DNA of 64,000 bases from Candidatus Melainabacteria bacterium (GTDB lineage: Bacteria > Cyanobacteriota > Vampirovibrionia > 2-02-FULL-35-15). The stretch is taken from the NCBI GenBank assembly GCA_016201905.1, contig JACQBQ010000039.1, positions 913-64,912 on the forward strand, in the 5' to 3' direction. The position numbers and the translations under genes were made by a program. The notes below the pieces were generated by a model. That model did not search any database. It saw only the letters and a list, made by a program, of their open reading frames with translations, and was not told the DNA's origin. The stretch's first letter is position 1; each line of letters opens with the position of its first letter. Positions 1-40,652 of the stretch are shown here, piece after piece.

Positions 1-123
1 ACAAACTATTACTAGGCATAGAGTCAGAGCAAGATTACTAGAGTTGAAGACAATTTCCTTTAAATTTATGACTTTCTGCTTCTTCTCCTTTTTAGTTATA
101 TCTTTTTCAATTGTTTTTGGCAT
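1..123 (-). CDS. Partial CDS with only the N-terminal 41 codons, running off the left edge; possibly a further member of the GT-C/TPR array
   Basis: ATG at 123..121 on the minus strand, open to position 1. It translates to MPKTIEKDITKKEKKQKVINLKEIVFNSSNLALTLCLVIVC, a Lys-rich N-terminus followed by a hydrophobic segment. This is the same layout as the N-termini of the upstream paralogues. It starts 52 nt after the stop of 176..2254. It is absent from the ORF track because it is truncated. Confidence 0.3.
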   Translation of the reverse strand, partial: MPKTIEKDITKKEKKQKVINLKEIVFNSSNLALTLCLVIVC

Positions 124-175
124 ATTTTGTTTTTAAGTATAATTCATTTGTAATACTACTGATTTGTCAATTCAC

Positions 176-2254
176 TTAGCTCTCAGGAACCAGCTTAATG
201 TTATCTTTTGATTTTTTAGCCATGACTTGATTGTTTAATTGTATAAAAACATTATAGGCATCTTCCAGGCTTTCTTTTGAATGTGTTCTAATGCCATACA
301 AATATGAAAACAATGCAAATTGATTCGAGTGATTTATTTCCTTGTAAAACTGTTTTAAGTTAAATAGTGTTTGTGTATCATATGGGAAATATTTAAATGA
401 TTTTTTCAAATAGTTCTCAGCTTTTTGGAAGTCATTATATTTACTTTTGTGTAAAATTGCTAAAGGTATTAATATGACAGGAGTTAATTTTCTTTTTACG
501 CTGTAATTTAATGTTTTTTCAGCTTCGTCCAAATCATTTTTTGCAAATAAAAGTCCAAGATAAAGATCAAGTACCTGTGTATCGATAATGGATAAATCCT
601 GCATGTATGGCTTTAAAATTTCAAAAGCCATTTCTTTATTTCCTTCAAGCCCAATTTTTGTAAGTGCAAGCAGATATGCAGTTTTAGCCTGCATGGCTTT
701 TGGATCAAGCCCATAAGCCTTAATTACTTTTGGGATTTTGTTTTGATATTTTTGTTTTTCCTCTTCAAGCTTTAAAAGTGAATTTTCGAGAATTTCTATT
801 CCGCTGATAAGGTATTCATTACCTTTATCCTTATACTTCTCGCTGTTTGAAGAAAGTAAAAGACTTCCCAACATTTGGAGTCTTAGCGATTTAAACAAAT
901 CGTTTGGAGCTTCCCTTAGAGCTGATACAAATAGTGTTGAACTGTCTTTCCAGTCCAATGTTCGAATATAAGCTCTGATGCTTAAAGTAAGAAGGACTAG
1001 GAACATAATAAATATTTTGGAATGGTTCCAAAATCTATCTTTGTCAGTAGTTATATTTGAAAATAAAAAATGAGAAAGCCCGAATATGAGCATTAGTAAG
1101 GAAAAATACAGATATCGTTCACTTATTAGGCAGTATGTCGGAGAAAAAATATGCAGGAAAGGTAAAAGAGCAATAAAAAAAGGAGCAAATGCAGTAAAGA
1201 AATAAAAGCAAAACCTTTTTCTTATAAAAAAGAATGATAGGCATAAGAGTAAGATAAATGAATACATGAAAATAAATGAACAAATTGAATGGAATGAAAA
1301 TAATGTTTTTGAAAAATCTATTATCATTGTTTGATCGATAGATAGGCGTAGAGGAGAAACGATTAATTTTATAAAATGAAAGAAGATTTGAGGTGATAGC
1401 CAAAAAATTCGCTCAAGTGTGATTGAAATTGGAGTAATCTCTGGAGTGAAAATGTTTCCCCTGATAACAGAAGATAAGAAATAGCCTACATAAACCACTA
1501 GCGCTATTAACAGAGGGAGTGCTTTCTTAAAAGCGGTATTTAGAGATTGTAGAACTGTATCATGTGGATTGTGAAAAGAATGAATCGCATAGATATAGAA
1601 AAATAAAATGAGCGGAACTGTTATAGAATACTCAGAATTAAAAAGGGGGAATAAGAAAAAAATGAAAACAAGTATACGACTCCAGGGATTTTCTTTTGAA
1701 TCAGAATCTATCCAATTAACAAAATAAAATACTAAAATTAAGCAGAGAGTATAAGTCAAAATTGCTGCCCAGTTAGCTGTAAATAAAATTGATTCTATAT
1801 TTACTGGGTGTAGTGCCCATAACAGTGTGAGAAAAGAAACTAACAGATATCTTATTTTGCTCTTCTTTAGAGAAGAACTGCATTGGGTTTCAGAGACTTT
1901 GTTTAAAGTCATATAAAGAAGGAGTGTGTTTAGTAGATGCAATGAAAATGATAAAAAGTGATAAGAAAAAGCATTTTTTTTGAATAAACAATATACAAAT
2001 AATGTAACTAAAGTGTTGATTGGATCACAGCGAAGGTTTGAAATAGTTGAATAAAAAGGATTACTGGCTTCAAAGTGATTATTTAATCCAAAGTATTTAA
2101 TGTATTCAAGAAGTTGTGTGAAAGAAGCAGGTATTGGCAATATTGTTTCGTTAAATATAATCTGTTCGTCAAAATGTTTCCACGGATAGTTTAAGGTATG
2201 TGCAAAAAAAATAGAAACAATTGTTAGTGTTAAAAAACAAAATAAAGTTGCCAT
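176..2254 (-). CDS. TMTC/PMT-like GT-C polytopic membrane glycosyltransferase with C-terminal TPR-like repeats (array member 1 by coordinate)
   Basis: 692-aa ORF with a ~430-aa multi-TM N-terminal region and a helical-repeat C-terminus. Motifs: HFDEQIIFNE after TM1, LLWALHPVNIESIL, ERIFWLSPQIFFHFIKLIVSPLRLSIDQ, ISERYLYF, RTLDWKD. Closest paralogue is 2258..4417. Confidence 0.75.
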   Translation of the reverse strand: MATLFCFLTLTIVSIFFAHTLNYPWKHFDEQIIFNETILPIPASFTQLLEYIKYFGLNNHFEASNPFYSTISNLRCDPINTLVTLFVYCLFKKNAFSYHFLSFSLHLLNTLLLYMTLNKVSETQCSSSLKKSKIRYLLVSFLTLLWALHPVNIESILFTANWAAILTYTLCLILVFYFVNWIDSDSKENPWSRILVFIFFLFPLFNSEYSITVPLILFFYIYAIHSFHNPHDTVLQSLNTAFKKALPLLIALVVYVGYFLSSVIRGNIFTPEITPISITLERIFWLSPQIFFHFIKLIVSPLRLSIDQTMIIDFSKTLFSFHSICSFIFMYSFILLLCLSFFFIRKRFCFYFFTAFAPFFIALLPFLHIFSPTYCLISERYLYFSLLMLIFGLSHFLFSNITTDKDRFWNHSKIFIMFLVLLTLSIRAYIRTLDWKDSSTLFVSALREAPNDLFKSLRLQMLGSLLLSSNSEKYKDKGNEYLISGIEILENSLLKLEEEKQKYQNKIPKVIKAYGLDPKAMQAKTAYLLALTKIGLEGNKEMAFEILKPYMQDLSIIDTQVLDLYLGLLFAKNDLDEAEKTLNYSVKRKLTPVILIPLAILHKSKYNDFQKAENYLKKSFKYFPYDTQTLFNLKQFYKEINHSNQFALFSYLYGIRTHSKESLEDAYNVFIQLNNQVMAKKSKDNIKLVPES

Positions 2255-2257
2255 CTT

Positions 2258-4417
2258 TTATAATCTCCCAAAAATCTGCTCATATATAATTTTAGTCTGG
2301 ATTACTTGTGGATCATTAATATATTCTCTTAAAAGTTTTTGCAGGATATTTTTTGACATCTCTTTGTTGTTTAAAGCAAGATATACATGAGCTGCTTCCT
2401 TTAAACTTTCGGGATCGTGGGTTCTAAGCCCGTAAAGGTATGAATAAAATGCAAATTCTTTCGCATTGTTTAGTTTCTTGTAAAGCCTTTTTAAGCCAAA
2501 TAAAGTAGAAGGATCATATGGAAAATATTTAAAAGATTGATTTAAATATTTTTCAGTAAGTGTCAGATCGTTATATTTGAACTCGCATAAGTCTGACAAA
2601 GCTACAAATAATACTGGACTAAATCTTCTTTGGTTTAGTGCCTTATGTAAGATATTTTCAGCTGCATCAATATTTTTTGTATTAAATAAAATCTGATAGT
2701 AGAAATCCAGAATGATTGTATCTAAAAATCCTAGATTCTTTGCATATGGTTCAAATATTTTATAAGCCTTATAAGGATCACTATTATTAGAGTATTCAGT
2801 GAAAGCTAGTAAAAAGGCTACTTTTGCCTCAAGTGTTTTTGGATCTAACCCATAAAACTTAATGACTTGAGGTGTTTTATCCTGATATTTTATTTTTTTA
2901 TTCTTAAAGTAAATGAGTGCTTTCTTTAAGGTTCTTCTGGAAGCTTCGTTATATTTATTGATGGTATTTTGAGAGATGTCTTTCTGGAAAGTTTTTAATG
3001 AAGAAGCAACCATTTCTAATCTAAGCCCTTTATAAAGATTGTTGGGAGAAGTTTTAATAGCAGATGTAAGTAAAGTGTAACTATCGCTCCAGTCCAGGGT
3101 ACGGAAATAAGTTCTTGTACTTAATGTGCATAGGATTAAAAGCAAAATTATTACTGAAAGGTGGGGTATGAACTTCTTTTGTGAAAAATCTGAAATTAAT
3201 GAAAATAAAATATAAGAAAATCCAATTATAAGAAAAAAAAGTGGAGAGTAAAGGTATCTTTCACTTGCAAGGTTATAAATGGGCGACAGTATATGTAAGA
3301 AAGGGAATAGTGAGAAGAAAAACGGAATAAACAAAATAAAAAGATAAAAGAACCCTCTCCTCCTTACATAAAAAAATGAAATTAAAGAGAGAAAAAGTAA
3401 GCCAAACATAATTAGAAAACATAAAATTGCATAAGGGTGAAAAAGGTAATGGGAAAACTTGACTTGTGCTGTTTGATCGATTGATAAGGTTATCGGGAAG
3501 AAAATTAATTTCAGAAAATGTAAAAATATCTGTGGTGCTAGCCAAAATATTCGTTCTAATGTAACCTCAAGAGGAGTCTTGGCTATCATGTTTAAGTTTT
3601 CTTTTGTCAGAGAAGAAAAGAAATGAAAAATAAAAATTGCAAGTACCAGAAGTAGAGGCAGTAACTTTTTAAGAGAGTATAGTATAGTTTGAAAGGTAAA
3701 ATAATCGGAATGATTATTCTGATGATTAGCATAGATGTAGAAAAATAAAATCAAAGGAAGCGTCACCGAATGTTCGCAAATAAATAGTGATGAAATGAAT
3801 AGAATAAATGTAAGAATAAAAAATGAAAAATGATCTTCAGTCTTTGAATTAAAGAAACAAAATACTGTTGTAAAAGCTAAAGTATAGGAAAGAAGAGTTG
3901 GCCAATTGCATGCAAATAAAACCGGTTCCACTATTGCCGGGTGCAGTGACCATAAAAGAGTTAATAGAGAAATCAGGGAAAGCCTTGTCAAATTAGAAAT
4001 TAAAGAAGTAAGGCTATAATTCTTGGCAACACTGTTCAAAATTAAAAAAAGCAAGCAGGTGTTTATAGTGTGGAGAAGAATTGATGTCAGGTGATAAAGA
4101 GAGACATTCTTTTGAAACAAAAAAAATACAAAAAGTAAAATGAGGTTATTGATTTTGTCACACCTTATATTTGAAATGTTTGAGTATAGAGGATTGCTGG
4201 CTATGAAATGATTGTTAAGTCCAAACAGCTTTATCATTTCAAATATTTCTGAAAATGAGGCTGGAGCAGGCATTACTGTTTCATTGAAAATAATATCTTC
4301 ATCAAAGAACTTCCAAGAATAATTTATAGTGTGTAAGTAAAATAAAAAAACAACTGAGCCTGTTATAAGGCAAATAAACAGAGTCAAATAGTTTTGTTTG
4401 TTTGGATTTGCTTTCAA
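2258..4417 (-). CDS. TMTC/PMT-like GT-C membrane glycosyltransferase with TPR-like C-terminus (array member 2)
   Basis: 719-aa ORF, 3 nt from its neighbour. Motifs: FFDEDIIFNE, LLWSLHPAIVEPVL, ERIFWLAPQIFLHFLKLIFFPITLSIDQ, ASERYLYS, RTLDWSD. Confidence 0.75.
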   Translation of the reverse strand: MKANPNKQNYLTLFICLITGSVVFLFYLHTINYSWKFFDEDIIFNETVMPAPASFSEIFEMIKLFGLNNHFIASNPLYSNISNIRCDKINNLILLFVFFLFQKNVSLYHLTSILLHTINTCLLFLILNSVAKNYSLTSLISNLTRLSLISLLTLLWSLHPAIVEPVLFACNWPTLLSYTLAFTTVFCFFNSKTEDHFSFFILTFILFISSLFICEHSVTLPLILFFYIYANHQNNHSDYFTFQTILYSLKKLLPLLLVLAIFIFHFFSSLTKENLNMIAKTPLEVTLERIFWLAPQIFLHFLKLIFFPITLSIDQTAQVKFSHYLFHPYAILCFLIMFGLLFLSLISFFYVRRRGFFYLFILFIPFFFSLFPFLHILSPIYNLASERYLYSPLFFLIIGFSYILFSLISDFSQKKFIPHLSVIILLLILCTLSTRTYFRTLDWSDSYTLLTSAIKTSPNNLYKGLRLEMVASSLKTFQKDISQNTINKYNEASRRTLKKALIYFKNKKIKYQDKTPQVIKFYGLDPKTLEAKVAFLLAFTEYSNNSDPYKAYKIFEPYAKNLGFLDTIILDFYYQILFNTKNIDAAENILHKALNQRRFSPVLFVALSDLCEFKYNDLTLTEKYLNQSFKYFPYDPSTLFGLKRLYKKLNNAKEFAFYSYLYGLRTHDPESLKEAAHVYLALNNKEMSKNILQKLLREYINDPQVIQTKIIYEQIFGRL

Positions 4418-4419
4418 GT

Positions 4420-6558
4420 TTAAAACCCCTTAGTTCTTGTCTTCTCTAGAGATGAAATTCTATTTTCTGCTCTTAGAGCTTTGTCTTTTTTATTTAATAA
4501 GAAATAAATATTTTGTGCAACCTTTAAATCTTCTGCTGAGTGTGCTCTAAGTCCATAAATATATGAAAAGTCAGCAAATTTTTCATAATCTCCCTTTGCC
4601 TGATATATTTTTTTCAGTAAAGTAAGTGTTCTTATATCGTACGGGAAGTACTTAAATGCTTGCAATGCAAACTTTTCTATTTCTTTCAGGTAAGCTTTAT
4701 CTATTTTTGTTAAATCAGCTGTGATAAAAATTATTCGTAAAGAGTAAGGATCCCTTTCATGTAGAATTTTTAAAATCTCTTCAGATTCAGGTAACATGTT
4801 GTTTTGATAAAATAATGTTGAATAAAAAACGAGTGCATCAACAGGTAGGATAGAAAGATCTTTTATATGTTCCTGCATGATTTTTAAAGCTATTTTTGGA
4901 TCTTTATTTAATCTAAAACTAGTTTGTGCGTATACATATGCTGCCTTTGAAAGAAGTGTTTCTGGATCTAAGCCATAGGTTTTAAGAATAATTGGTGTTA
5001 CTACTTCATACATGTCTGTTTGTTTTTGAAGTTCAGTAATTGCTTGTTTGGCATATTTAATAGCAAGCTTTTTGTATTCTGGTTTAACTTCATCAAGTGG
5101 ACTATCACTTAAGATTTTATCCTGTGGTATTAATTCTTTATATTTAAATGCTTTGTAAAGAGGATTGTCAGTAGTTTTGATTACTGATTTATACAGTGTG
5201 TCATTATTTTTCCAGTCCAGCGTTCTTACATATGCTCTCCCTGAAGATATTGCTAAAAGTATTATTAATATTGAAATCATTAAGTTTGTGAAAGCTTTTT
5301 TATTCTCATATTCTGAAATCCTTAGAAATATAAGATGTGCAAATCCAAAAATTAAAATAAATGAGGAAAAATATAAATATCGTTCACTGGCTAAATTATA
5401 TGATTGAGCTAATACCTGTGAATAAGGTATTAAAGAAAGAAGAAGCGGAATAGTTATTACAAAGAAACTAGGGAATTTTTTGTTTGCTCTTACTAAAGAA
5501 ATAAGAGAGAGAAGTATAGAAATAAAAATAAAACCAATGCAAAAAATTGCAGATGGGTCAAAAAGAGTTTTTGCAATTTTTACAAAAAAAGTCTGGTCTA
5601 TTGAAAGATTAATCGGAAAAAAAATGAGCTTTATGAAATGGAAAATAATTTGAGGAGAAAGCCATAAGATTCTTTCTGTAATTAGAATGGGCGAAAATGT
5701 GCCAATATTGATTCTTGTTCTTGAAAACAAAAAGGATATTACAAATATAAGAGAAGCAGTTAATAATGGTAATGCCTCAAGAATAGTTTCCTTAAAACAT
5801 ATTGGAAATGATTTTGAGAATGAAATAGATTTATGATTGAAGTGTATTTTCATTACCAGTGTGTATGCCATAAGAATAAGTGGAAGCATAAAATTAAACT
5901 CTGCGGTAAAGAGTGCGATTACAAAAGGTACAAATAAAAAAATAAATCTGGAGAATGTAAATCTAACTAGTTTAAAATCCTGAGGTTGTAATTTTAAATA
6001 AATAAAAGCTGTTAGAAAGCAAAGAGTGTGACTTAAAACAATGTTTCCATTTGACAGTAGTAAAACTGATTCCATGTTTACCGGGTGAAGAGCCCACAGT
6101 AATGTAAGTGTAGAAATCAGAATCAGTTTAATTGATTTATTAACTTCATCTTTTAGGAAGAGCTTGGATACTGTATTTAGTATCAGGAATATAAGGATTG
6201 TATTTATTAGATGTAGACTTAGGCTGTAAAGATGATATGAGACAGGATTCTTCTTAAGAAAGAATAGAATCAGCAGCATAAATAGGTTATTGAATATAGG
6301 GTTACAACGAAACGAAATTATATTTGAGTAAAGAGTGTTGGTCGCTTCAAAGCAGTTATTTAGTCCCAGTAAAGATATCAGTTCAAACATTTCAGAGAAT
6401 GAACTACATATAGGAAGGTAGCTTTCTTGTAGAGGTACTATTTCATCATAAGCTTTTATCTGATAAAAAATTGTATGAGAGAAAAAAATAAATACAATTA
6501 GGCAGCTAATAATGCATGTTAAAGCAGTCAGATTGATCTTCTTTGACTTTTGTTTCAT
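4420..6558 (-). CDS. TMTC/PMT-like GT-C membrane glycosyltransferase with TPR-like C-terminus (array member 3)
   Basis: 712-aa ORF. Motifs: AYDEIVPLQE, LLWALHPVNMESVL, ERILWLSPQIIFHFIKLIFFPINLSIDQ, ASERYLYF, RTLDWKN. Closest paralogue is 6561..8714. Confidence 0.75.
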   Translation of the reverse strand: MKQKSKKINLTALTCIISCLIVFIFFSHTIFYQIKAYDEIVPLQESYLPICSSFSEMFELISLLGLNNCFEATNTLYSNIISFRCNPIFNNLFMLLILFFLKKNPVSYHLYSLSLHLINTILIFLILNTVSKLFLKDEVNKSIKLILISTLTLLWALHPVNMESVLLLSNGNIVLSHTLCFLTAFIYLKLQPQDFKLVRFTFSRFIFLFVPFVIALFTAEFNFMLPLILMAYTLVMKIHFNHKSISFSKSFPICFKETILEALPLLTASLIFVISFLFSRTRINIGTFSPILITERILWLSPQIIFHFIKLIFFPINLSIDQTFFVKIAKTLFDPSAIFCIGFIFISILLSLISLVRANKKFPSFFVITIPLLLSLIPYSQVLAQSYNLASERYLYFSSFILIFGFAHLIFLRISEYENKKAFTNLMISILIILLAISSGRAYVRTLDWKNNDTLYKSVIKTTDNPLYKAFKYKELIPQDKILSDSPLDEVKPEYKKLAIKYAKQAITELQKQTDMYEVVTPIILKTYGLDPETLLSKAAYVYAQTSFRLNKDPKIALKIMQEHIKDLSILPVDALVFYSTLFYQNNMLPESEEILKILHERDPYSLRIIFITADLTKIDKAYLKEIEKFALQAFKYFPYDIRTLTLLKKIYQAKGDYEKFADFSYIYGLRAHSAEDLKVAQNIYFLLNKKDKALRAENRISSLEKTRTKGF

Positions 6559-6560
6559 TC

Positions 6561-11041: not shown

Positions 11042-11050
11042 AGATAATTT

Positions 11051-13078: not shown

Positions 13079-13081
13079 AAG

Positions 13082-15556: not shown

Positions 15557-15604
15557 TTATAGAAATTGTACTTTTGAATATACACGGTTTTTTATACTCG
15601 TTTT

Positions 15605-15633
15605 AAAATATTAGGTTTTTATAAATTTGACAA
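15605..15633 (-). promoter_or_regulatory. Candidate sigma70-type promoter for the GT-C/TPR operon
   Basis: On the minus strand: TTGTCA (15633..15628), a 17-nt spacer, then TATTTT (15610..15605). It lies ~50 nt upstream of the ATG at 15556. This is a hexamer match only. Confidence 0.3.
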
Positions 15634-15855
15634 ATTATTATTAGTATATGTCTTTTATTTCCGTTAGGATTTCTCCTAAAGTTTCTCCAAATAATACATA
15701 ATTCAAGGTCAGGAGAAATTTACTAAAGGTTAGAATAACTACATTAACAGCTAGAAAGATAAAAAGAATAACTCGTATTACCCTTTAATATAAACTTAGA
15801 TAGTGTTAACAGGAACTTTATGATTGAGTTGAAGTTCAAACAAACTGGTGTATTC

Positions 15856-15884
15856 TTGACTTTGGCGTGTTAGACAAAATTATT
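15856..15884 (+). promoter_or_regulatory. Weak candidate promoter for the giant surface-protein gene
   Basis: TTGACT at 15856..15861, a 17-nt spacer, then ATTATT at 15879..15884. The -10 match is poor. It lies ~105 nt upstream of the ATG at 15991. Confidence 0.2.
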
Positions 15885-15990
15885 TTGAAGTTTTTTAATT
15901 AAAATTTCAAAATAGCTTGGTCTAAAACAAAAAAGTTATTGTGTAAGTTAAAGGATGTTAACAATAATAATTAAGAAGGAGTAGAAATTA

Positions 15991-20145: not shown

Positions 20146-20164
20146 TAGCTAAGTGCCATATTAT

Positions 20165-20194
20165 TGAGGCCCCTGTAACCCAGGGGCCTCTTTT
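20165..20194 (+). terminator. Rho-independent terminator after the giant surface-protein gene
   Basis: GAGGCCCCTG (20165..20174), loop TAACC, CAGGGGCCTC (20180..20189), then TTTT. Confidence 0.85.
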
Positions 20195-20308
20195 CAAATT
20201 AAATTAACATCATTTAAAAAATGAAAAAGGATTAAAAAAGAAAAAGATAGGATAGGTACGGTAAAAAAGATTTATTGGTTTTATTAGGAAAGGGTGGAGG
20301 AAAATAAA

Positions 20309-21709
20309 ATGGTTAATAGAGCAACTTTGGGTGTGTTAATAATGTTGCTTTTGTTTGGTCTTTTTGGATTTAATTGGCCAGCTGCAAAAGCACAAGTAGC
20401 AACACCAGCACAAGCAACGATAACTGTAAGTGGTGTACCAACAGGTACAAAAGGACTCGCAGTTGAAGTTACTGTTGATACAGCAGTAGTAACTTTAGAT
20501 TCATCAGCATCAAGCAGTGTTAGCGGTGCACTAGTGGTTACAGGAAGTATGTCAGAAGGCGTTGGAGTGATTAGTACAAGTAGTGACTTGCCAGCAAGTT
20601 TTACAATTACAGCACCATTTAAAGGTGTAACTGCTGGAACGTCAATGGTATCAGTTGGAAAAGTTTTAGATATGATTGGCGGAACTGCAATAGCAGGAGC
20701 ATCAGCAATGGTTGATGTTAGCTCAGTCTCAGTAGCTTCTTCTAGTACTAGCACATCATCTTCCTCCAGTAGTTCAACCTCTGGTGGTGCTGGAAAGCTA
20801 AGTACAGATACAATTACAGTTACAATTAATGGTGCACCAGTAGATGCTACGAATGCATTAAATGTAACGCTAGCATTTAGTGATGCAGGAGTTGTTTCAC
20901 TTGATACAGGTGTTACCTTTATGGGTACTGGTGCGACTCAGTTACTAACTGATGTTGATACTACTAAGAATGTTTTAACGGCAGTATGGAATAACAACAC
21001 TACTGACGGTAAAGCAGTTCTTACAGCTATGCTGAAAGCAGGCTCAATGGCTGGTACAACAATGATTAGCGTAAGCAAAGTAGAAGCAGCTGGTGGTACT
21101 GATATTACAAGCAATGTAGTTGCTACTGTAGATCCAAGCTCTGTAACGAATAGTGCAGGAACTTCATTAGTAGGAACTTTTGGATTAGTTGCTCCTGACT
21201 CAGTAACAGGTCCAGGTAAAGTAGCAGTAGCATTTACTGCTGATGGTACACCGTCCTCATTCTCAGCGACTCTAAACGGAAGTAAGGTTGAGTTCTTTGA
21301 TATGAGTTCAGTTGGTGTAGCGATTGTTAATATTCCATCAAGTGGTGACCTTACTCTAATGTTGGCAGTTACAGCTTCAGGAATGACTACAAGTGTAGAT
21401 CTTGGAACTATCTCTGTTGACCAAGGCAGTGGTAAGAAGCCATCAGTGAACTCAGCAAGCGCAAGCAATAAGAGTTCAGGTACAAACTTAATAGTTACTG
21501 GCAAAAAACTAAAGGATGCCACTATTGAGATAGTACCGACTGATAGAACGGCAACATCAACCACAGCTAAGGGAGCAAACATAAAAGCAACCTATGATTC
21601 TAGTGAATGTATACCAAGTGGTAGTTTCGTAAATGTTTCTACTGCAGGTGGTACAGCAGCTAAGAAGATCAAGGCACATGGTAGCTGTTCGAATAAGCTA
21701 GTTGAATAA
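20309..21709 (+). CDS. Secreted Ser/Thr/Ala/Gly-rich protein with two internal repeat modules and a poly-Ser linker
   Basis: The ORF track starts at GTG 20294. I prefer ATG 20309, which has GGAGG at 20296..20300. Signal peptide MVNRATLGVLIMLLLFGLFGFNWPAAKA/QV. Two modules end in AGTSMVSVGKV and AGTTMISVSKV, separated by SSSTSTSSSSSSSTSGG. The C-terminal part looks like an IPT/Ig-like beta domain. A terminator follows. Confidence 0.85.
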   Translation: MVNRATLGVLIMLLLFGLFGFNWPAAKAQVATPAQATITVSGVPTGTKGLAVEVTVDTAVVTLDSSASSSVSGALVVTGSMSEGVGVISTSSDLPASFTITAPFKGVTAGTSMVSVGKVLDMIGGTAIAGASAMVDVSSVSVASSSTSTSSSSSSSTSGGAGKLSTDTITVTINGAPVDATNALNVTLAFSDAGVVSLDTGVTFMGTGATQLLTDVDTTKNVLTAVWNNNTTDGKAVLTAMLKAGSMAGTTMISVSKVEAAGGTDITSNVVATVDPSSVTNSAGTSLVGTFGLVAPDSVTGPGKVAVAFTADGTPSSFSATLNGSKVEFFDMSSVGVAIVNIPSSGDLTLMLAVTASGMTTSVDLGTISVDQGSGKKPSVNSASASNKSSGTNLIVTGKKLKDATIEIVPTDRTATSTTAKGANIKATYDSSECIPSGSFVNVSTAGGTAAKKIKAHGSCSNKLVE

Positions 21710-21762
21710 CGTTAAGGCAATAGGTATCTAGTTATCTATTGTACGCTTTACAAAATATAAAA

Positions 21763-21792
21763 GAGGCACAAGTACTTGTGCCTCTTTTTTTT
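21763..21792 (+). terminator. Rho-independent terminator
   Basis: GAGGCACAAG (21763..21772), loop TA, CTTGTGCCTC (21775..21784), followed by T8. Confidence 0.85.
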
Positions 21793-21883
21793 CTGAATTT
21801 TCCTAAACATTGACAGTAAAAATGATAAATAATATAAGTTAGTGTTTGCTAGAATAGGTTACAAAAGTTGAGGAGATAACCGT

Positions 21884-22771
21884 ATGAAAAAGTTAATTAT
21901 TTTAGGAGTCCTATTGGCTAATCTAGGTTTTCTTTCTGCCTTAGCAGGAGATAAGCCAGCTAAACCAAAGATTGATATACATCCTACTGAAGGATATTCC
22001 CTTCAAATATCAATTAATGATATTCCCAAAAATCAGCAAACTCTTTTTATTCCAATTAAAATAGACACAATGGTTCTGGATTTTGATCAAGTTGTACTTG
22101 AAGGACTATCAACTCAAAATATACTTGCTGTTGTTTCAAGCTCAAAAGATAAGGTCGGTCCTGGTATTGGATTACTTAAGTTTGATGAAAATGGACTTCC
22201 TCCTTCTTTGTCATTAAAGGTTCTTTTAAAACGTACAGGTGATGGACAAACCTCAGTTTCCTTATTGAAGGTTGCTGATGAACCTGCTTTGCTTTCAAAA
22301 GGAGCAGTACTAAGTGATGGAGTTACAGTCAGCATTAAGGAAAATCCTGAACTAGAAATCACTGAAAAGGTTGAAAAAAACAGGCCAAGGCTCTTTATAA
22401 CTGAAAATAAGATAACGCTAGATGTGAAAAGAACTGGACAAAAAGAAGAGACAGTCTTTATACCATTAATATTTGATCAAAGCTTGGTTGATTTAGATGA
22501 AACTTTTGGATATGCCATTATTGGTCCTGGCATATCTGCTAAAGCTTTTAGCTCAAGCTCACTCCATGAAGGTGGACCTGGGGTTGAAATACTCTTGAGT
22601 TCTGAGGCAGATAAGGATTTTAGTATTGATGTTGACTTGATCCCGAAAAAAGTAGGTAAAGCAAAGCTAGCAGTAGCTTTCCCACTGAAAGGTCACATTG
22701 CAATAGTGAAAGGTCCTATAGTTGATATAAATCCTACGGTGATTTCTGTAGCTAGTACAGAAAAGAAGTAA
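21884..22771 (+). CDS. Secreted protein of unknown function with two internal repeat modules (cohesin-like pattern, tentative)
   Basis: 295-aa ORF with GAGGAG upstream. Signal peptide MKKLIILGVLLANLGFLSALAG. Two modules begin QTLFIPIKIDTMVLDFDQVVLEG and ETVFIPLIFDQSLVDLDETFGY. Confidence 0.8.
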   Translation: MKKLIILGVLLANLGFLSALAGDKPAKPKIDIHPTEGYSLQISINDIPKNQQTLFIPIKIDTMVLDFDQVVLEGLSTQNILAVVSSSKDKVGPGIGLLKFDENGLPPSLSLKVLLKRTGDGQTSVSLLKVADEPALLSKGAVLSDGVTVSIKENPELEITEKVEKNRPRLFITENKITLDVKRTGQKEETVFIPLIFDQSLVDLDETFGYAIIGPGISAKAFSSSSLHEGGPGVEILLSSEADKDFSIDVDLIPKKVGKAKLAVAFPLKGHIAIVKGPIVDINPTVISVASTEKK

Positions 22772-22801
22772 ATAACAGAAAATAAGTTTTAAGGAGAAAT
22801 T

Positions 22802-22900
22802 ATGAAACAGAAGCAGCAAAGAGGTTTAAAGCGTGCAATGAAAGTCTTAAAGAGAAAAAGAAAGAAAAGAATGCTTAATAAAATTGAAAAGATTAAATGA
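22802..22900 (+). CDS. 32-aa extremely basic micro-ORF, translationally coupled to the aminotransferase gene
   Basis: AAGGAG at ~22791..22796, ATG at 22802. Translates to MKQKQQRGLKRAMKVLKRKRKKRMLNKIEKIK. Its TGA stop (22898..22900) overlaps the ATG of the next gene (22897) as ATGA. It is below the ORF-track size cut-off. Confidence 0.4.
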   Translation: MKQKQQRGLKRAMKVLKRKRKKRMLNKIEKIK

Positions 22901-24042
22901 CAAAGCTAATAAACCTAAAACAAAACCAGAAAAAAATCCCAATTATTGATCTTGTCTGCCACTATAGATCTATTCAAAATGAAATCGAGAAAGTGACTTT
23001 TGATGTGCTCTCATCAGGACATTATATTCTGGGGAAAAATGTAGAAGCATTTGAAGAAGAACTATCAAAATACTTAGGATGTAAGAATGTCGTTTCCTGT
23101 GCAAATGGAACAGATGCAATTGTTCTGGCTTTAAAGGCCCTGGATATAAAGCCAGGAGATGAAATTATAACTGTATCGCACAGTTTTTTTGCTACAAGTG
23201 AGGCTATTGCTTTAGTAGGCGGAATTCCTGTTTTTGCAGATATAAGAGAAGATGATTTTAATATTGATCCTGAAAAAATCGAAGCTTTAATTACAAAAAA
23301 AACAAAAGCAATTATACCTGTCCATTTATATGGCCAGCCATGTGAAATCAGCTCTGTGATTGAGATTGCAAAGAAGTATGGATTATATGTGATTGAAGAC
23401 TGTGCTCAATCTATAGGAGCTAAGTTTAATGGGAAAAACGTGGGTACTTTTGGTGATATTAGTACTTTGAGTTTTTTCCCGACAAAAAACCTAGGAGCCT
23501 GTGGTGATGGAGGAGCTGTAATTACTAATGATTATAAACTTGCAACAAAAATAAAACAGCTTAGGATTCATGGCTCATCCAAGCGCTATGTGCATGATTA
23601 TATTGGCATGAATAGTAGGCTTGATGAGTTGCAAGCTGCCATATTAAGAATTAAATTGCCTTACTTGGATAAATGGAATCATGAACGCTATAAAGCAGCT
23701 AAATATTATGATGAACTTTTTAAAGATGTAAAGCAAGTGACTACTCCAATTGTTAAATCTAATTCCCAGCACGTTTTCCACCAATATACAATCAGATTAA
23801 ATCAAAGAGACTTCTTATGTGAAAAACTTAGAGAAAAAAACATTGAAACAATAATTTATTATCCAGTACCCATACATTTACAAAGTGTGTTTAGTTATTT
23901 AGGTCGCCAAAAAGGCTCATTACCAGTGACTGAAAAGATATGCAATGAGATTTTATCTTTGCCAATATACCCGGAAATCACAAAAGACATTCAAGAATAT
24001 ATAGTAGAAAATATTAAAAGTATTCTTGCTGTTGGTCCTTGA
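22897..24042 (+). CDS. DegT/DnrJ/EryC1/StrS-family PLP-dependent sugar aminotransferase (PglE/WecE-like)
   Basis: 381 aa. Family hallmark SFFPTKNLGACGDGGAVITND (PLP-lysine region), plus HLYGQPCE and NSRLDELQAAIL. Confidence 0.9.
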   Translation: MTKLINLKQNQKKIPIIDLVCHYRSIQNEIEKVTFDVLSSGHYILGKNVEAFEEELSKYLGCKNVVSCANGTDAIVLALKALDIKPGDEIITVSHSFFATSEAIALVGGIPVFADIREDDFNIDPEKIEALITKKTKAIIPVHLYGQPCEISSVIEIAKKYGLYVIEDCAQSIGAKFNGKNVGTFGDISTLSFFPTKNLGACGDGGAVITNDYKLATKIKQLRIHGSSKRYVHDYIGMNSRLDELQAAILRIKLPYLDKWNHERYKAAKYYDELFKDVKQVTTPIVKSNSQHVFHQYTIRLNQRDFLCEKLREKNIETIIYYPVPIHLQSVFSYLGRQKGSLPVTEKICNEILSLPIYPEITKDIQEYIVENIKSILAVGP

Positions 24043-25953
24043 TTAAACACCTGCAGGAACTTTGCTTTCTAATTTGTTTAGCTTATGTGTTTCAGTTGAA
24101 AGTTTGTTTTTAAATGTTTGAATATCGCAAGTCGGTAGCAGGTTATATAGTTCATCAATACTGGCTTTCACAAGATTGCCTGGAGTATCTTTGGACTTAA
24201 TCACTAGTATTTTTTTGTGTTTTGTGATGTCTGTGCCTTCATAATATCCCACAAGTTCTTCTTTGAGTTTTTCGCCGGGTCTTAAACCTGTAACTTTTAC
24301 TTTGATTTGATCGAAATCGTAACCAGACAGTTTAATAAAGTCTTTTGCTAATTGATAAATGCTGATTTCATTACCCATATCTAAAACCATTATTTCAGAT
24401 GATTTCCCGGCAGCGCTTGCTTTAATTACAAGTTGTGCGGCTTCTAGCAATGTCATAAAAAATCTATATGCGTTCTTGTCTGTAATAGTAATTTGCAAGT
24501 TGTTTTTGAGTTGTCTTTCCCATATAGGAATTACACTGCCACGACTTCCTATTACGTTTCCGAATCTGACTGAAATGTATTTGGTCTTAGGATATTCTTT
24601 AGCGCATGCATTAACAATAAGTTCAGCAAGTCTTTTTGTGAATCCTAAAACATTTACTGGATTTACTGCTTTATCTGTTGAAATATTTACAAATGTTTCA
24701 GTATTTAATAATCCTGCAATCTCTGCAATATTTTTTGTTCCAATAGCATTATTTTCAAATGCTTCTTTAGGGTGGTCTTCCATAAGTGGTACATGTTTAT
24801 GAGCTGCGGCATGGAAAATGACTTCTGGAGCAGCTTTGTGGATGTGATAGTGAAGCTGTTTGTAATTCCTGATGTCACAAATTATCGGAGTAAAGTTTGA
24901 TGTTAATGCACTAAGATCTTGTGAGAGTTGAAAAATGCTATTTTCACCTCTTCCTAAAATATAAATGTGCTTAGGTGAAAAGTTTTTAACTAATTGTTTG
25001 GTTAGCTCGCTTCCAATTGAGCCGCCAGCTCCTGTAATTAAAATCGTTTTATTGTTTATAAAATTTGCAACTTCTGGAATAGACATATCAACAGGTTCTC
25101 TGCCAAGTAAATCTTCTAAGCTTACTTTTCTGATTTGTTCAATTGTTACTTGACCACCAGCTAGTTGGTCTACCCCGGGAATTATTTTTGTTTCCAGATT
25201 TGTTTTCTGACATAGTTCAACTATTTCTCTCAACTGTTTTGGTGGCATTGAAGGTATTGCAATTATAATTTGTTCAATATTTTGTTCTTTAACTATTTTG
25301 TCTAAAGAATTAATTTGTCCAGTTACTCTTACACTGTTCGATAGCTTAATGTTTTGTTTCCTTAAATCATCGTCTAAGGCACAAATAACTTCAATGTCTA
25401 GTTCAGGATGCTGGGCAATTTTTCTTACTAGCTCCTGAGCTGCTTGTCCTGCACCTATTAAGAGTGTTCGTGTTTTTGTTCTTTGTATTTTAGACTGTTG
25501 TCTTTTTTTAATTGCTCTGTTTGCTATCTGCCACTTTCTTGTAAGCCTTGCAAAGGATAGAAAAATAAGACTTAGAGATGAATCCATTATGATTACACCA
25601 AAAGGAATTGCAAAAATATAATTTTCTGAAGTGAAACCAATTGCTCTTGGTATGGCTAAAAGTAAAGAAGAAAAGACGATTGGTTTTGTAAGTTCTAAAA
25701 TCTCGTTAATTTCTGTGTAGCGCCACATCTTGCTGTATATTTGAAAAACAAATAAAAAAATGGTTCTTAATGCAACAACAAAAGGTAAAACAGTTGGTAA
25801 CTGTGATTTCCAAAACCAGCTTTGAACCCCAGGTGATAAGTGATGTTCTAGTCTTAGTTTGTATGAAACTATTAGAGAAAGAGAAAATAAGGAGATATCA
25901 ATTACTATTCTTAAAATCTTTTTTATGGAATAAACCCACTCTTTGATTGCCAC
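24043..25953 (-). CDS. CapD/PglF/WbpM-like membrane-anchored nucleotide-sugar 4,6-dehydratase (polysaccharide biosynthesis protein)
   Basis: 636 aa. N-terminal TM helices, then two Rossmann motifs (LLIGAGQAAQEL and ILITGAGGSIGSEL), and STDKAVNPVNVLGFTKRLAE. Convergent with the aminotransferase gene with no gap. Confidence 0.88.
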   Translation of the reverse strand: MAIKEWVYSIKKILRIVIDISLFSLSLIVSYKLRLEHHLSPGVQSWFWKSQLPTVLPFVVALRTIFLFVFQIYSKMWRYTEINEILELTKPIVFSSLLLAIPRAIGFTSENYIFAIPFGVIIMDSSLSLIFLSFARLTRKWQIANRAIKKRQQSKIQRTKTRTLLIGAGQAAQELVRKIAQHPELDIEVICALDDDLRKQNIKLSNSVRVTGQINSLDKIVKEQNIEQIIIAIPSMPPKQLREIVELCQKTNLETKIIPGVDQLAGGQVTIEQIRKVSLEDLLGREPVDMSIPEVANFINNKTILITGAGGSIGSELTKQLVKNFSPKHIYILGRGENSIFQLSQDLSALTSNFTPIICDIRNYKQLHYHIHKAAPEVIFHAAAHKHVPLMEDHPKEAFENNAIGTKNIAEIAGLLNTETFVNISTDKAVNPVNVLGFTKRLAELIVNACAKEYPKTKYISVRFGNVIGSRGSVIPIWERQLKNNLQITITDKNAYRFFMTLLEAAQLVIKASAAGKSSEIMVLDMGNEISIYQLAKDFIKLSGYDFDQIKVKVTGLRPGEKLKEELVGYYEGTDITKHKKILVIKSKDTPGNLVKASIDELYNLLPTCDIQTFKNKLSTETHKLNKLESKVPAGV

Positions 25954-40640: not shown

Positions 40641-40652
40641 AAGGATAGAAAA

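What the first reader, a model, noticed from the sequence alone, without database searches (positions are those of the whole stretch)
1..25953. Candidate multi-paralogue protein O-glycosylation system: GT-C/TPR array, Ser/Thr-rich secreted proteins and amino-sugar genes
Seen in sequence:
- A >15-kb operon of seven tandem GT-C-like membrane proteins with TPR-like domains is transcribed divergently from three signal-peptide-bearing proteins.
- Two of those proteins are extremely rich in Thr and Ser.
- They are directly followed by a DegT/PglE-like aminotransferase and a CapD/PglF-like dehydratase.

Established knowledge:
- PMT and TMTC GT-C enzymes transfer sugar from a polyprenyl/dolichyl-phosphate donor to Ser/Thr of secreted proteins on the non-cytoplasmic face.
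- In TMTCs the TPR region is thought to engage the acceptor protein.
- PglF and PglE make UDP-4-amino-4,6-dideoxy-HexNAc precursors, which are used in bacterial protein glycosylation.

Inference: the paralogues may be a set of O-glycosyltransferases with different acceptor or donor specificities acting on the adjacent surface proteins. I am not aware of a characterised bacterial system with this layout.

Caveat: no polyprenyl-phosphate sugar synthase (GT2), flippase, acetyltransferase or initiating phosphoglycosyltransferase is visible in this window.
Basis: partly seen in the sequence, partly recalled or inferred. Interest (0 to 1): 0.85.

Follow-up and report, generated by a model that had tools for sequence, protein, structure and literature searches.

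The report
Tandem TMTC-like glycosyltransferases beside surface-protein genes
An uncultured Melainabacteria genome carries at least seven tandem copies of a membrane sugar-transferase related to the animal TMTC protein O-mannosyltransferases, always next to three secreted, Ser/Thr-rich proteins, so it is a plausible but untested bacterial protein-glycosylation system of a layout not yet described.

Summary
Seven co-directional paralogues (176-15556, minus strand) are packed with -4 to +9 bp between them, and an eighth is cut by the window edge. They sit divergent from three signal-peptide proteins, followed by a DegT aminotransferase and a convergent CapD/PglF-type dehydratase.

Pfam and NCBIfam see only TPRs. 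A profile of the membrane domains links them to bacterial TPR proteins (hhalign probability 100%, E 4.5e-54), of which 9 of 54 hit Pfam TMTC_DUF1736. A confident AlphaFold model (pLDDT 94) has a GT-C fold; the best PDB matches are PglB, PIG-U and ArnT. The EL1 Asp-Glu, the EL5 Arg and other motifs are invariant in all seven.

The array lies next to S1 in every long relative contig examined, and the paralogue classes keep their order. All relatives belong to one shallow, broadly syntenic Melainabacteria clade. In relatives the locus continues into a flippase-like gene, RmlA, RmlB, a GT4 and methyltransferases.

Protein O-glycosylation of S1-S3 is the best reading (about 0.5). A cell-envelope glycan or lipid acceptor is not excluded. 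No polyprenyl-phosphate sugar synthase was seen. I found no characterised bacterial TMTC-like enzyme in the literature searched.

The parts
1..123 (-). N-terminus of an eighth TMTC-like paralogue (class F), cut by the window edge
   Evidence: The ORF MPKTIEKDITKKEKKQKVINLKEIVFNSSNLALTLCLVIVC starts at base 123. It is 41% identical over 41 aa to the N-terminus of the class F gene that follows class E in L031.
176..2254 (-). Paralogue G1 (692 aa), class E: GT-C membrane domain plus periplasmic TPR
   Evidence: FDE, R, H..E, E and ERY motifs are kept.
2258..4417 (-). Paralogue G2 (719 aa), class D
   Evidence: (TPR_19, E 8e-6).
4420..6558 (-). Paralogue G3 (712 aa), class C; recent duplicate of G4 (59% identity in the membrane domain)
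6561..8714 (-). Paralogue G4 (717 aa), class C
8711..11041 (-). Paralogue G5 (776 aa), class B
11051..13078 (-). Paralogue G6 (675 aa), class A; the protein that was modelled
   Evidence: AlphaFold2 full length: pLDDT 94.6, pTM 0.93. Membrane domain alone: pLDDT 93.8. Foldseek best matches are PglB, PIG-U and ArnT.
13082..15556 (-). Paralogue G7 (824 aa), class A, first gene of the operon
   Evidence: TPR_14 E 1.1e-10. 114 homologues, named only as Melainabacteria hypothetical proteins.
15557..15990 (.). 434-bp divergent intergenic region between the array and S1; AAGGAG ribosome-binding site just upstream of the S1 start codon
   Evidence: Sequence. The consensus promoter scan found no more sites than in shuffles.
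15991..20145 (+). S1: 1384-aa secreted protein rich in Thr/Ala/Ser/Gly; candidate major surface (S-layer-like) protein and candidate acceptor
   Evidence: S+T 25.1%, charged residues 10.3%. No Pfam, NCBIfam or PDB match. 43 homologue clusters, 47-66% identical over the aligned part (four of them cover only 20-57% of S1); the sources that name them say Melainabacteria. 64-65% identical to two relatives.
20294..21709 (+). S2: 471-aa secreted protein, S+T 28%, with a 15-residue Ser/Thr run at residues 149-163 (the real start is probably the ATG at 20309)
   Evidence: Conserved at 55-66% identity in relatives.
21759..21788 (+). Terminator-like hairpin (13-bp stem followed by a T run) after S2
21884..22771 (+). 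S3: 295-aa secreted Lys-rich protein, not S/T-rich (13.6%)
   Evidence: Conserved at 50-62% identity.
22897..24042 (+). DegT/DnrJ/EryC1-family sugar aminotransferase
   Evidence: Pfam E 6.6e-128. Best NCBIfam matches are PseC (262 bits) and dTDP-4-amino-4,6-dideoxygalactose transaminase (246 bits), both below cut-off.
24043..25953 (-). Membrane-anchored CapD/PglF/WbpM-type NDP-sugar 4,6-dehydratase, convergent with DegT
   Evidence: Polysacc_synt_2 E 1.2e-100 and CoA_binding_3. PseB 176 bits, below cut-off.

Best explanation
The array encodes at least eight paralogous inner-membrane glycosyltransferases of the GT-C fold. They form a divergent, clade-specific branch of the bacterial TMTC-like (GT105-type) superfamily.

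**Architecture**
- Each protein has an 11-helix membrane domain. Its periplasm-facing loops carry an invariant Asp-Glu (EL1), an Arg (EL1), His...Glu (EL2), Glu (EL3) and Glu/Asp-Arg-Tyr (EL5).
- A periplasmic TPR superhelix follows the membrane domain.

**Proposed mechanism (by analogy with TMTC, PMT and ArnT)**
- Each enzyme takes a sugar from a polyprenyl-phosphate-linked donor that has been flipped to the periplasmic face.
- It transfers the sugar to Ser/Thr hydroxyls of exported proteins, and the TPR domain holds the acceptor.
- The prime acceptors are the products of the divergently transcribed genes: S1 (a 1384-aa Thr/Ser/Ala/Gly-rich secreted protein, probably the main surface protein) and S2, perhaps S3.
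- The six or seven conserved paralogue classes would differ in the site, domain or sugar they handle.

**Shown:** paralogy, operon layout, GT-C fold, homology to TMTC-like proteins, retention of catalytic-type motifs, conserved linkage to S1-S3, and embedding in a region that also encodes deoxy/amino-sugar genes.

**Inferred:** topology, lipid-linked donor, protein acceptor, identity of S1-S3 as acceptors, and division of labour among paralogues.
For: **Layout and fold**
- Seven tandem paralogues at 30-50% identity, with operon spacing.
- AlphaFold2 models: pLDDT 94.6 and pTM 0.93 for the full length; pLDDT 93.8 for the membrane domain.
- Foldseek on the membrane domain: PglB 6gxc/5ogl/3rce (E 9e-4, probability 1.0, TM 0.40-0.42), PIG-U, ArnT 5f15, ALG6 and AftA. 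All are GT-C proteins.

**Homology**
- The membrane-domain profile finds 23,623 proteins at E<=1e-3.
- The distant hits are TPR proteins with the consensus FVxDD...YRP...HPxxTEAV...KE...AERYLY...DW. Of 54, 9 hit Pfam TMTC_DUF1736, best E 2.1e-9.
- hhalign between the window's membrane domains and these proteins: probability 100%, E 4.5e-54, 399 columns.
- All seven keep the acidic pair and the other loop motifs. These correspond to the residues assigned to catalysis, metal binding and donor binding in TMTC and PMT (PMC7801869, PMC6801728).

**Topology**
- The helices of the model and the positive-inside rule fit the 1-6-4, 11-TM plan with an extracytoplasmic C-terminus (by eye).

**Linkage to S1-S3**
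- The array is divergent from S1 in the window, L001, L003/L007, L008/L012, L009, L011, L014, L020, L021, L023, L027 and L028.
- Homologues in two further MAGs carry adjacent locus tags.
- The linkage persists while paralogue number varies from 5 to at least 9, and while classes are lost or duplicated.
- S1 and S2 carry twice the background S+T.

**Glycan context**
- A DegT gene is followed 2 bp later by a paralogue in L006.
- In relatives the locus continues into a flippase-like protein (TIGR00374, 72.9 bits against a cut-off of 43.2), RmlA, RmlB, a GT4 and methyltransferases.
Against: - There is no experimental evidence for any bacterial TMTC-like protein in the literature I could search.
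- No polyprenyl-phosphate sugar synthase (GT2) is seen in the window or in the fetched flanks.
- The Lys before the EL3 Glu contacts the donor phosphate in PMT and TMTC. It is absent in all seven paralogues.
- No window protein reaches Pfam TMTC_DUF1736, PMT or PMT_2 even at E<=1.
- Structural similarity to solved GT-C enzymes is only at fold level (TM about 0.4), and Pmt1/2 is not among the best 50 matches.
- All genomes with the layout belong to one shallow clade whose housekeeping flanks are also syntenic.
- S1 is evenly S/T-enriched and well conserved. It is not mucin-like, and 25% S+T is also typical of unglycosylated beta-rich surface proteins.
- A second S1 paralogue lies about 25 kb from the array in one genome.
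- Periplasmic TPR domains also occur in polysaccharide secretion machines (my own knowledge).
Confidence: 0.5

Rival explanations
1. The paralogues are GT-C enzymes that build or decorate a non-protein envelope component: a periplasmic or surface polysaccharide, LPS/lipid A, or a glycolipid. Each would add one linkage from a polyprenyl-phosphate sugar, as the mycobacterial EmbC/A/B, Aft and Mpt enzymes or ArnT do. The TPR domains would scaffold the machinery or bind the polymer. S1-S3 would be neighbours only, or proteins that bind the glycan.
For: - The fold matches include ArnT and AftA.
- Tandem GT-C paralogues that build a polysaccharide have a precedent in embCAB (my own knowledge).
- Both flanks of the block encode nucleotide-sugar enzymes: CapD and DegT on one side, and RmlA, RmlB, a GT4 and methyltransferases on the other in relatives.
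- DUF2298-type polytopic proteins follow the array in relatives.
- The donor-phosphate Lys of the protein O-mannosyltransferases is missing.
- Periplasmic TPR domains are common in exopolysaccharide export proteins (my own knowledge).
Against: - The only characterised members of the GT-C-plus-TPR architecture, the TMTCs, act on proteins (PMC7801869).
- No CBM-type carbohydrate-binding domain is present. The C-terminal domain is TPR throughout.
- No Wzx/Wzy, polymerase, export or chain-length genes lie in the window or the fetched flanks.
- The divergent pairing with S1 is kept even where the array gains or loses classes, and where the block appears inverted.
Confidence: 0.3
2. The paralogues form a general periplasmic protein O-glycosylation system that acts on many exported proteins. 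S1-S3 are not special clients. The adjacency reflects co-regulation of envelope genes, or simply inherited synteny within a shallow clade.
For: - Housekeeping genes flanking the block (histidine phosphatase, amidase) are syntenic in the same genomes. Conserved neighbourhood is therefore partly phylogenetic inertia.
- An S1 paralogue exists away from the array.
- Actinobacterial Pmt and the Bacteroidota system modify many proteins (PMC12871550; my own knowledge).
Against: - The array and S1 share a 434-bp divergent control region in the window. Where both are visible they stay adjacent in that divergent orientation in every relative, with a gap of roughly 330-490 bp, despite rearrangements around them: DegT lost in L020, and the block inverted relative to CapD in L038.
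- The S1 family and this array clade have the same narrow distribution.
Confidence: 0.15
3. The proteins are catalytically inactive membrane-anchored TPR scaffolds or chaperones that help to export or assemble S1-S3, much as PIG-U is a non-catalytic protein with a GT-C fold.
For: - PIG-U, a GT-C-fold subunit without transferase activity, is among the best structural matches.
- The EL3 Lys is lost, and the Asp of the EL4 motif is replaced in G5-G7.
Against: - The EL1 Asp-Glu, the EL1 Arg, the EL2 His/Glu, the EL3 Glu and the EL5 Arg are invariant in all seven paralogues. They are invariant or present in at least 90% of the 64 clade members aligned.
- Such conservation across six or seven ancient classes is hard to explain without catalysis.
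Confidence: 0.04

Closest known systems
Metazoan TMTC1-4 (CAZy GT105), protein O-mannosyltransferases of cadherins and protocadherins
   Same: - N-terminal 11-TM GT-C domain followed by an extracytoplasmic TPR domain.
- Acidic pair in the first loop, with YRP-like, HPxxTEAV-like and ERY-like motifs.
- Several paralogues per genome.
- Sequence link through bacterial relatives that hit Pfam TMTC_DUF1736.
   Different: - Bacterial, and 7-10 copies in one operon.
- Asp-Glu instead of Asp-Asp.
- The EL3 Lys is absent.
- No direct DUF1736 hit.
- Donor and acceptor are unknown. Dolichol-P-mannose cannot be the donor in a bacterium.
PMT family (GT39): fungal Pmt1-7, POMT1/2, actinobacterial Pmt with Ppm1
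   Same: - GT-C enzymes that transfer a sugar from a polyprenyl-phosphate donor to Ser/Thr of exported proteins on the non-cytoplasmic face.
- Asp-Glu motif in loop 1.
- Paralogue families with different substrate ranges.
   Different: - No PMT, PMT_2 or MIR domain hits.
- Pmt1/2 is not among the best 50 structural matches.
- The accessory domain is TPR, not MIR.
- No Ppm1-type synthase was found nearby.
Mycobacterial EmbC-EmbA-EmbB and the Aft/Mpt GT-C enzymes
   Same: Several GT-C paralogues, three of them in tandem (embCAB), each using a polyprenyl-phosphate monosaccharide on the periplasmic face. AftA appears among the weak structural matches.
   Different: - Those enzymes act on polysaccharide acceptors.
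- They carry carbohydrate-binding C-terminal domains, not TPRs.
- They are not paired with secreted protein genes.
ArnT (GT83) with ArnB
   Same: - GT-C fold, matched by Foldseek to 5f15 at probability 0.63.
- The amino sugar is made by a DegT-family aminotransferase and delivered on undecaprenyl phosphate.
   Different: - ArnT modifies lipid A and has no TPR domain.
- No ArnA or ArnC homologues are in the window.
PglB/STT3 oligosaccharyltransferases together with the PglF/PglE bacillosamine enzymes
   Same: - PglB is the best structural match for the membrane domain (E 9e-4, TM 0.40-0.42).
- The window has PglF-like and PglE-like genes.
   Different: - The periplasmic catalytic domain of PglB is replaced here by TPRs.
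- No STT3 Pfam hit.
- No PglC, PglD or PglK equivalents in the window.
- The similarity is at fold level only.

Membership tests
TMTC-like GT-C (CAZy GT105 / Pfam TMTC_DUF1736 superfamily) | Polytopic N-terminal GT-C domain (11 TM, 1-6-4 plan) followed by a C-terminal TPR domain on the non-cytoplasmic side | tested here: met
   - The AlphaFold2 model shows the helices and a C-terminal all-helical repeat domain.
- TPR Pfam hits.
- Full-length Foldseek matches are TPR superhelices, and the membrane domain matches GT-C enzymes.
- Sidedness is inferred by eye from the positive-inside rule, not computed.
TMTC-like GT-C (CAZy GT105 / Pfam TMTC_DUF1736 superfamily) | Invariant acidic pair in the first extracytoplasmic loop (DD in TMTC) | tested here: met
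   F/Y-D-E is invariant in all seven paralogues, and D34 and E35 are present in at least 90% of the 64 clade members aligned. It is Asp-Glu as in PMTs, not Asp-Asp.
TMTC-like GT-C (CAZy GT105 / Pfam TMTC_DUF1736 superfamily) | [quoted passage not shown] | tested here: not met
   None of the seven proteins hits it at E<=1. The link is indirect: 9 of 54 distant relatives hit the model (best E 2.1e-9), and those relatives align to the window proteins with hhalign probability 100%, E 4.5e-54.
TMTC-like GT-C (CAZy GT105 / Pfam TMTC_DUF1736 superfamily) | EL3 Lys-Glu motif; the Lys contacts the donor phosphate | tested here: not met
   The Glu is invariant, but the preceding residue is Ala, Asn, Cys or Ser in all seven. 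The wider bacterial relatives have Lys-Glu.
TMTC-like GT-C (CAZy GT105 / Pfam TMTC_DUF1736 superfamily) | EL2 HPxxTEAV-like motif, EL1 Arg (YRP) and EL5 (E/D)RY Arg | tested here: met
   LH(P/S)xxxE, R and (E/D)RY are invariant in all seven.
TMTC-like GT-C (CAZy GT105 / Pfam TMTC_DUF1736 superfamily) | Transfers mannose from a polyprenyl-phosphate donor to Ser/Thr of folded protein domains | not testable with these tools
   This needs biochemistry or glycoproteomics.
PMT (GT39) | Pfam PMT / PMT_2 / PMT_4TMC domains and a luminal MIR domain | tested here: not met
   No such hits at E<=1. Pmt1/2 structures are not among the best 50 Foldseek matches.
ArnT (GT83) | Close structural or sequence similarity to ArnT; lipid A acceptor | tested here: inconclusive
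   Foldseek match to 5f15 has probability 0.63, TM 0.33, E 0.5. No Pfam hit. The acceptor cannot be tested here.
O-antigen ligase / Wzy_C / PglL-type O-oligosaccharyltransferase | Pfam Wzy_C domain | tested here: not met
   No hit at E<=1 in any of the seven.
PglB/STT3 oligosaccharyltransferase (GT66) | STT3 domain with its periplasmic catalytic domain | tested here: not met
   PglB is the best fold match (E 9e-4, TM 0.40-0.42). There is no STT3 Pfam hit, and the C-terminal domain is TPR.
PglF/PglE-type UDP-4-amino-4,6-dideoxy-HexNAc pathway | Membrane-anchored Polysacc_synt_2 4,6-dehydratase plus a DegT aminotransferase, with an acetyltransferase for bacillosamine | tested here: inconclusive
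   - Both enzyme families are present.
- No equivalog cut-off is reached: PseB 176 bits against 408, PseC 262 against 424.
- The only hexapeptide transferase in the window is CysE (243 bits against 211).
- DegT is absent at this position in L020.
Bacterial S-layer protein (for S1) | Known S-layer or anchoring domains (for example SLH), or a demonstrated lattice | tested here: not met
   No Pfam, NCBIfam or PDB sequence match at all. The S-layer idea rests only on size, signal peptide, composition and a strong ribosome-binding site.

The most novel reading that the evidence does not exclude
This would be the first bacterial TMTC-type protein O-glycosylation system, and a combinatorial one. Six or seven anciently diverged paralogue classes, kept in fixed gene order, would each install a sugar on a different site, domain or residue context of one giant surface protein (S1) and its partners. 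The donors would be flipped polyprenyl-phosphate deoxy- or amino-hexoses made by the flanking Rml, CapD and DegT genes. That would give a prokaryotic model, and a possible evolutionary source, for the animal TMTC/cadherin pathway.
Probability: 0.25. Interest if true: 0.85.

Novelty: new variant of a known kind. Interest (0 to 1): 0.62.

Why it matters
- TMTC-type enzymes were recognised only recently in animals. The PDB copy searched here returned no TMTC structure, either by fold or by sequence.
- I found no characterised bacterial counterpart. Yet the profile search shows tens of thousands of bacterial relatives (23,623 cluster representatives at E<=1e-3).
- This locus places 8-10 such enzymes beside obvious candidate substrates and sugar-precursor genes. 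That gives a concrete, expressible test bed for what bacterial GT-C-plus-TPR proteins do, how the TPR domain chooses acceptors, and how paralogues divide the work.
- It also bears on the cell surface of Melainabacteria, the non-photosynthetic sisters of cyanobacteria, about which almost nothing is known.
- If the acceptor turns out to be a glycan instead, the locus would still define a new multi-enzyme periplasmic glycan assembly line.

Tried and rejected
**Searches that gave nothing useful**
- Direct Pfam and NCBIfam scans of the seven proteins gave only weak TPR hits and nothing on the membrane domain.
- A profile of the full-length paralogues against PDB sequences found only TPR proteins.
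- Foldseek with the full-length model was swamped by TPR superhelices such as SPY, OGT and APC/C. I re-modelled the membrane domain alone to get past this.
- S1, S2 and S3 gave no meaningful Pfam, NCBIfam or PDB sequence match even at permissive thresholds.
- S2 and S3 are not detectably related to each other, and S1 has no internal repeats.
- The consensus promoter scan of the divergent region found no more sites than in shuffles.
- Rfam and tRNA scans found only one tRNA-Leu far from the locus.
- Literature searches for bacterial TMTC-like, GT105 or DUF1736 enzymes found no characterised bacterial member.

**Look-ups that failed**
- The window's G1 protein is not on record by exact sequence.
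- An accession was not in the annotated collections.
- A metagenome scan with the DUF2298-like protein found nothing. The second scan, with the array alignment, worked.

**Readings rejected**
- O-antigen ligase/Wzy: no Wzy_C hit.
- PMT (GT39): no PMT or MIR hits.
- PglD-like acetyltransferase at 30669-31442: it is CysE, next to CysK.

Full report
**1. What is in the sequence**

Bases 176-15556 carry seven ORFs on the minus strand, of 692, 719, 712, 717, 776, 675 and 824 aa. Spacing runs from a 4-bp overlap to a 9-bp gap, and no ORF of 100 aa or more lies on the opposite strand inside the block. The seven proteins align end to end at 30-50% identity with about 65 invariant columns. I call them G1 (176-2254) to G7 (13082-15556).

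An eighth reading frame starts at base 123 on the same strand and runs off the window. Its 41 residues are 41% identical to the N-terminus of the gene at the equivalent position in a relative. The array is therefore at least eight genes long, and the window cuts it.

Across a 434-bp intergenic region, three plus-strand genes encode proteins with Sec-type signal peptides, read by eye:
- S1: 15991-20145, 1384 aa.
- S2: 20294-21709, 471 aa.
- S3: 21884-22771, 295 aa.

S1 and S2 have 25.1% and 28.2% Ser+Thr, against 12% in eight housekeeping proteins of the window. S3 has 13.6%. The enrichment is even along the chains, apart from one 15-residue S/T run in S2. 'Extremely rich' therefore overstates it.

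A DegT-family aminotransferase follows (22897-24042, Pfam E 6.6e-128). Convergent with it is a membrane-anchored CapD/Polysacc_synt_2 dehydratase (24043-25953, minus strand, E 1.2e-100).

The rest of the window is housekeeping: GatA-type amidase, CysK and CysE, MnmG, RF, Ppx, ThiL, PolA and others. It holds no GT2, flippase or initiating transferase.

**2. What the seven proteins are**

Curated libraries see only TPR repeats in the C-terminal third and nothing in the membrane domain. A profile against PDB sequences likewise finds only TPR proteins.

I searched a profile of the seven membrane domains alone against 1.84 billion cluster representatives. It found 23,623 proteins at E<=1e-3, but only 85 at E<=1e-30. 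This is a small, divergent clade inside a very large superfamily.

The distant hits are TPR proteins whose membrane domains share the consensus FVxDD ... YRP ... GYHLxN..H..N ... VHPxxTEAV ... KE..LP ... AERYLYxP ... RNxDW. Nine of 54 hit Pfam TMTC_DUF1736, best E 2.1e-9. Profile-profile comparison of the window's membrane domains with this set gives probability 100%, E 4.5e-54 over 399 columns.

AlphaFold2 with a 64-sequence alignment gives a very confident model of G6 (pLDDT 94.6, pTM 0.93). The membrane domain alone gives pLDDT 93.8.
- Foldseek with the whole model returns only TPR superhelices.
- With the membrane domain, the best matches are all GT-C-fold proteins: PglB (E 9e-4, probability 1.0, TM 0.40-0.42), the GT-C-like PIG-U, ArnT, ALG6 and AftA.
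- This similarity is at fold level. Pmt1/2 is not among the best 50.

All seven paralogues keep the following:
- an F/Y-D-E in the first loop;
- an Arg later in that loop;
- YH...HLxN;
- LH(P/S)xxxE;
- a Glu in the third loop;
- an ER..W..PQ...KL..P..LS motif in the long fourth loop, which corresponds to the DUF1736 region;
- an (E/D)RY in the fifth loop.

These correspond to the motifs that Eisenhaber and colleagues and Albuquerque-Wendt and colleagues assign to catalysis, metal binding and dolichol-phosphate binding in TMTC and PMT enzymes (PMC7801869, PMC6801728).

There are two departures:
- The Lys that precedes the EL3 Glu and contacts the donor phosphate in PMT and TMTC is absent in all seven. 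It is also absent from the clade consensus but present in the wider bacterial relatives.
- The Asp of the EL4 'LSxDQ' motif is replaced in G5-G7.

Reading the model's helices against the sequence, the positively charged loops fall on alternate sides. This fits the 11-TM, 1-6-4 plan with the N-terminus in the cytoplasm and the TPR domain in the periplasm. That is my inference, not a computed topology.

**3. Relatives and conservation**

Homologues of G7 number 114 clusters at E<=1e-3. Those with names are 'hypothetical protein, Candidatus Melainabacteria' from groundwater metagenomes, and several lie on the same long contigs.

S1 has 43 homologue clusters, 47-66% identical over the aligned part; four of them cover only 20-57% of S1. 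The sources that name any say the same organisms, and none has a Pfam domain.

In every long contig I could read, the layout is the same. These are L001, L003/L007, L008/L012, L009, L011, L014, L020, L021, L023, L027 and L028. An array of five to at least nine paralogues sits divergent from S1-S2-S3.

A neighbour-joining tree of 42 full-length paralogues resolves classes that keep their order outward from S1:
- A: G7 and G6.
- B: G5.
- C: G4 and G3.
- D: G2.
- E: G1.
- F: distal, present in relatives.
- Classes A and C show lineage-specific duplications. One genome (L012) lacks A and B.

The TPR domains of the window's paralogues are somewhat more diverged than the membrane domains, at a mean of 32% against 38% identity.

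Two cautions apply:
- The same genomes are also syntenic for the neighbouring histidine phosphatase and amidase, the latter at 79-83% identity. The clade is shallow, and conserved adjacency is partly inherited.
- DegT is not fixed. L020 has CapD directly beside S3 with no DegT. In L006, DegT is followed 2 bp later on the same strand by a paralogue.

One genome has a second S1 paralogue about 25 kb away, between thiL and ppx. In L038 the distal end of the array abuts CapD. This suggests that the whole [S genes + array] block is inverted there.

**4. The locus is larger than the window shows**

In relatives, class E is followed in turn by:
- one to three class F paralogues;
- one or two DUF2298-like polytopic proteins;
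- a radical SAM/SPASM protein;
- an LPG_synthase_TM-family protein, which passes NCBIfam's 'flippase-like domain' model at 72.9 bits against a cut-off of 43.2;
- a more distant TMTC-like paralogue (class G);
- a methyltransferase.

Contig L016 overlaps this stretch at 53-79% identity in the same order. It continues with RmlA (334.6 bits against 320), RmlB (455 against 365), a GT4 glycosyltransferase and two more methyltransferases.

A flippase candidate and deoxy-sugar genes belong to the same neighbourhood. A polyprenyl-phosphate sugar synthase was still not seen.

**5. Most likely mechanism**

I read the array as a set of periplasm-facing GT-C glycosyltransferases of the TMTC-like kind. They would use lipid-linked sugar donors, with the TPR domain holding the acceptor.

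The most probable acceptors are the secreted proteins encoded across the divergent promoter region, above all S1 and S2. The paralogue classes would differ in site or sugar specificity. I put this at about 0.5.

Shown:
- paralogy and operon layout;
- GT-C fold;
- homology to TMTC-like proteins;
- retention of catalytic-type residues;
- linkage to S1-S3;
- the glycan-biosynthesis context.

Inferred: topology, donor type, and protein rather than glycan acceptor.

Rivals:
- **Envelope glycan or lipid acceptor (0.3).** The enzymes would build or decorate an envelope glycan or lipid in the manner of EmbCAB/Aft or ArnT. The sugar-nucleotide genes on both flanks, the lost EL3 Lys, and the fact that periplasmic TPRs also serve polysaccharide machines all favour it.
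- **General protein-glycosylation system (0.15).** S1-S3 would not be special clients.
- **Non-catalytic scaffolds (0.04).** The invariant motifs make this unlikely.

**6. Comparison with what is known**

The system works most like TMTC1-4 and, more loosely, the PMTs.

On membership in the TMTC superfamily:
- Supported by architecture, by most motifs and by profile-profile homology.
- Not supported by a direct DUF1736 hit or by the EL3 Lys.
- I therefore file it as a divergent bacterial branch, not as a TMTC orthologue.

It is not a PMT, a Wzy_C-type ligase or an STT3/PglB enzyme by their defining domains.

The literature library returned no characterised bacterial TMTC-like or GT105 enzyme. 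The Bacteroidota review notes that even that phylum's O-oligosaccharyltransferase is still unknown.

**7. Verdict**

- The functional link to S1-S3 is plausible and conserved, but unproven and drawn from a narrow clade.
- The link to PglF/PglE is weak.
- I rate this a new variant of a known kind, with interest 0.62.

Noticed in passing
Related loci L031 6718-18827, L032, L044, L049, L016: Beyond the window's left edge, relatives continue the locus in this order: class F paralogues, DUF2298-like membrane proteins, a radical SAM/SPASM protein, a flippase-like LPG_synthase_TM protein, a distant class G TMTC-like paralogue and methyltransferases. L016 adds RmlA, RmlB and a GT4.
   Followed up: yes
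window 237-248 of G7 and the aligned positions in G1-G6 (EL3 loop): The Lys that precedes the conserved EL3 Glu is a donor-phosphate contact in PMT and TMTC according to PMC7801869 and PMC6801728. It is absent in all seven paralogues and in the clade consensus, but present in the wider bacterial relatives. This may point to a different donor.
   Followed up: partly
L038 7769-17074: The distal (class F) end of the array lies directly beside CapD, the histidine phosphatase and the amidase. Relative to the window, the whole S-gene-plus-array block seems to be inverted in that genome.
   Followed up: no
L018 10001-13933: MAG nzgw193 has a second S1 paralogue (1310 aa, 52% identity) inserted between thiL and ppx. 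Those two genes are adjacent in the window (39054-41606).
   Followed up: partly
L008 and L010 record titles: Contigs carrying the Melainabacteria-type S1 and array are labelled 'uncultured Gammaproteobacteria' (CAZRTB010000002.1) and 'Blastocatellia bacterium' (JAHFUF010000776.1). These are probably mis-binned or mislabelled.
   Followed up: no
window 60057-62933 (-): A 958-aa polytopic membrane protein with a large extracytoplasmic region and a C-terminal TM helix has no Pfam or NCBIfam hit. By eye it resembles YfhO-type GT-C proteins, but this was not tested.
   Followed up: partly
window 52514-54166 (+): A 550-aa protein without any family match seems to consist of two similar halves, each ending in a hydrophobic 'FVK...P...SKF...G...KLL...VNP' segment.
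   Followed up: no
window 1-22000: Composition differs sharply within the locus. The array is 29.7% G+C and S1/S2 are 41%, against 33.6% for the rest of the window. The plus strand also has a positive GC skew over the minus-strand array. Amino-acid composition probably explains this rather than foreign origin.
   Followed up: partly
P0296 (799 aa) compared with window 15991-16820: The first 240 or so residues of mature S1 form a module that occurs twice in tandem in a shorter related protein (47-53% identity). S1 is therefore modular.
   Followed up: partly
window 50912-52162 (-) and 54867-55343 (-): A nucleotide-sugar dehydrogenase (TIGR03026, 244 bits, above cut-off) and a cytidylyltransferase-like protein lie 25-30 kb from the array. 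They may be further envelope-glycan genes.
   Followed up: no
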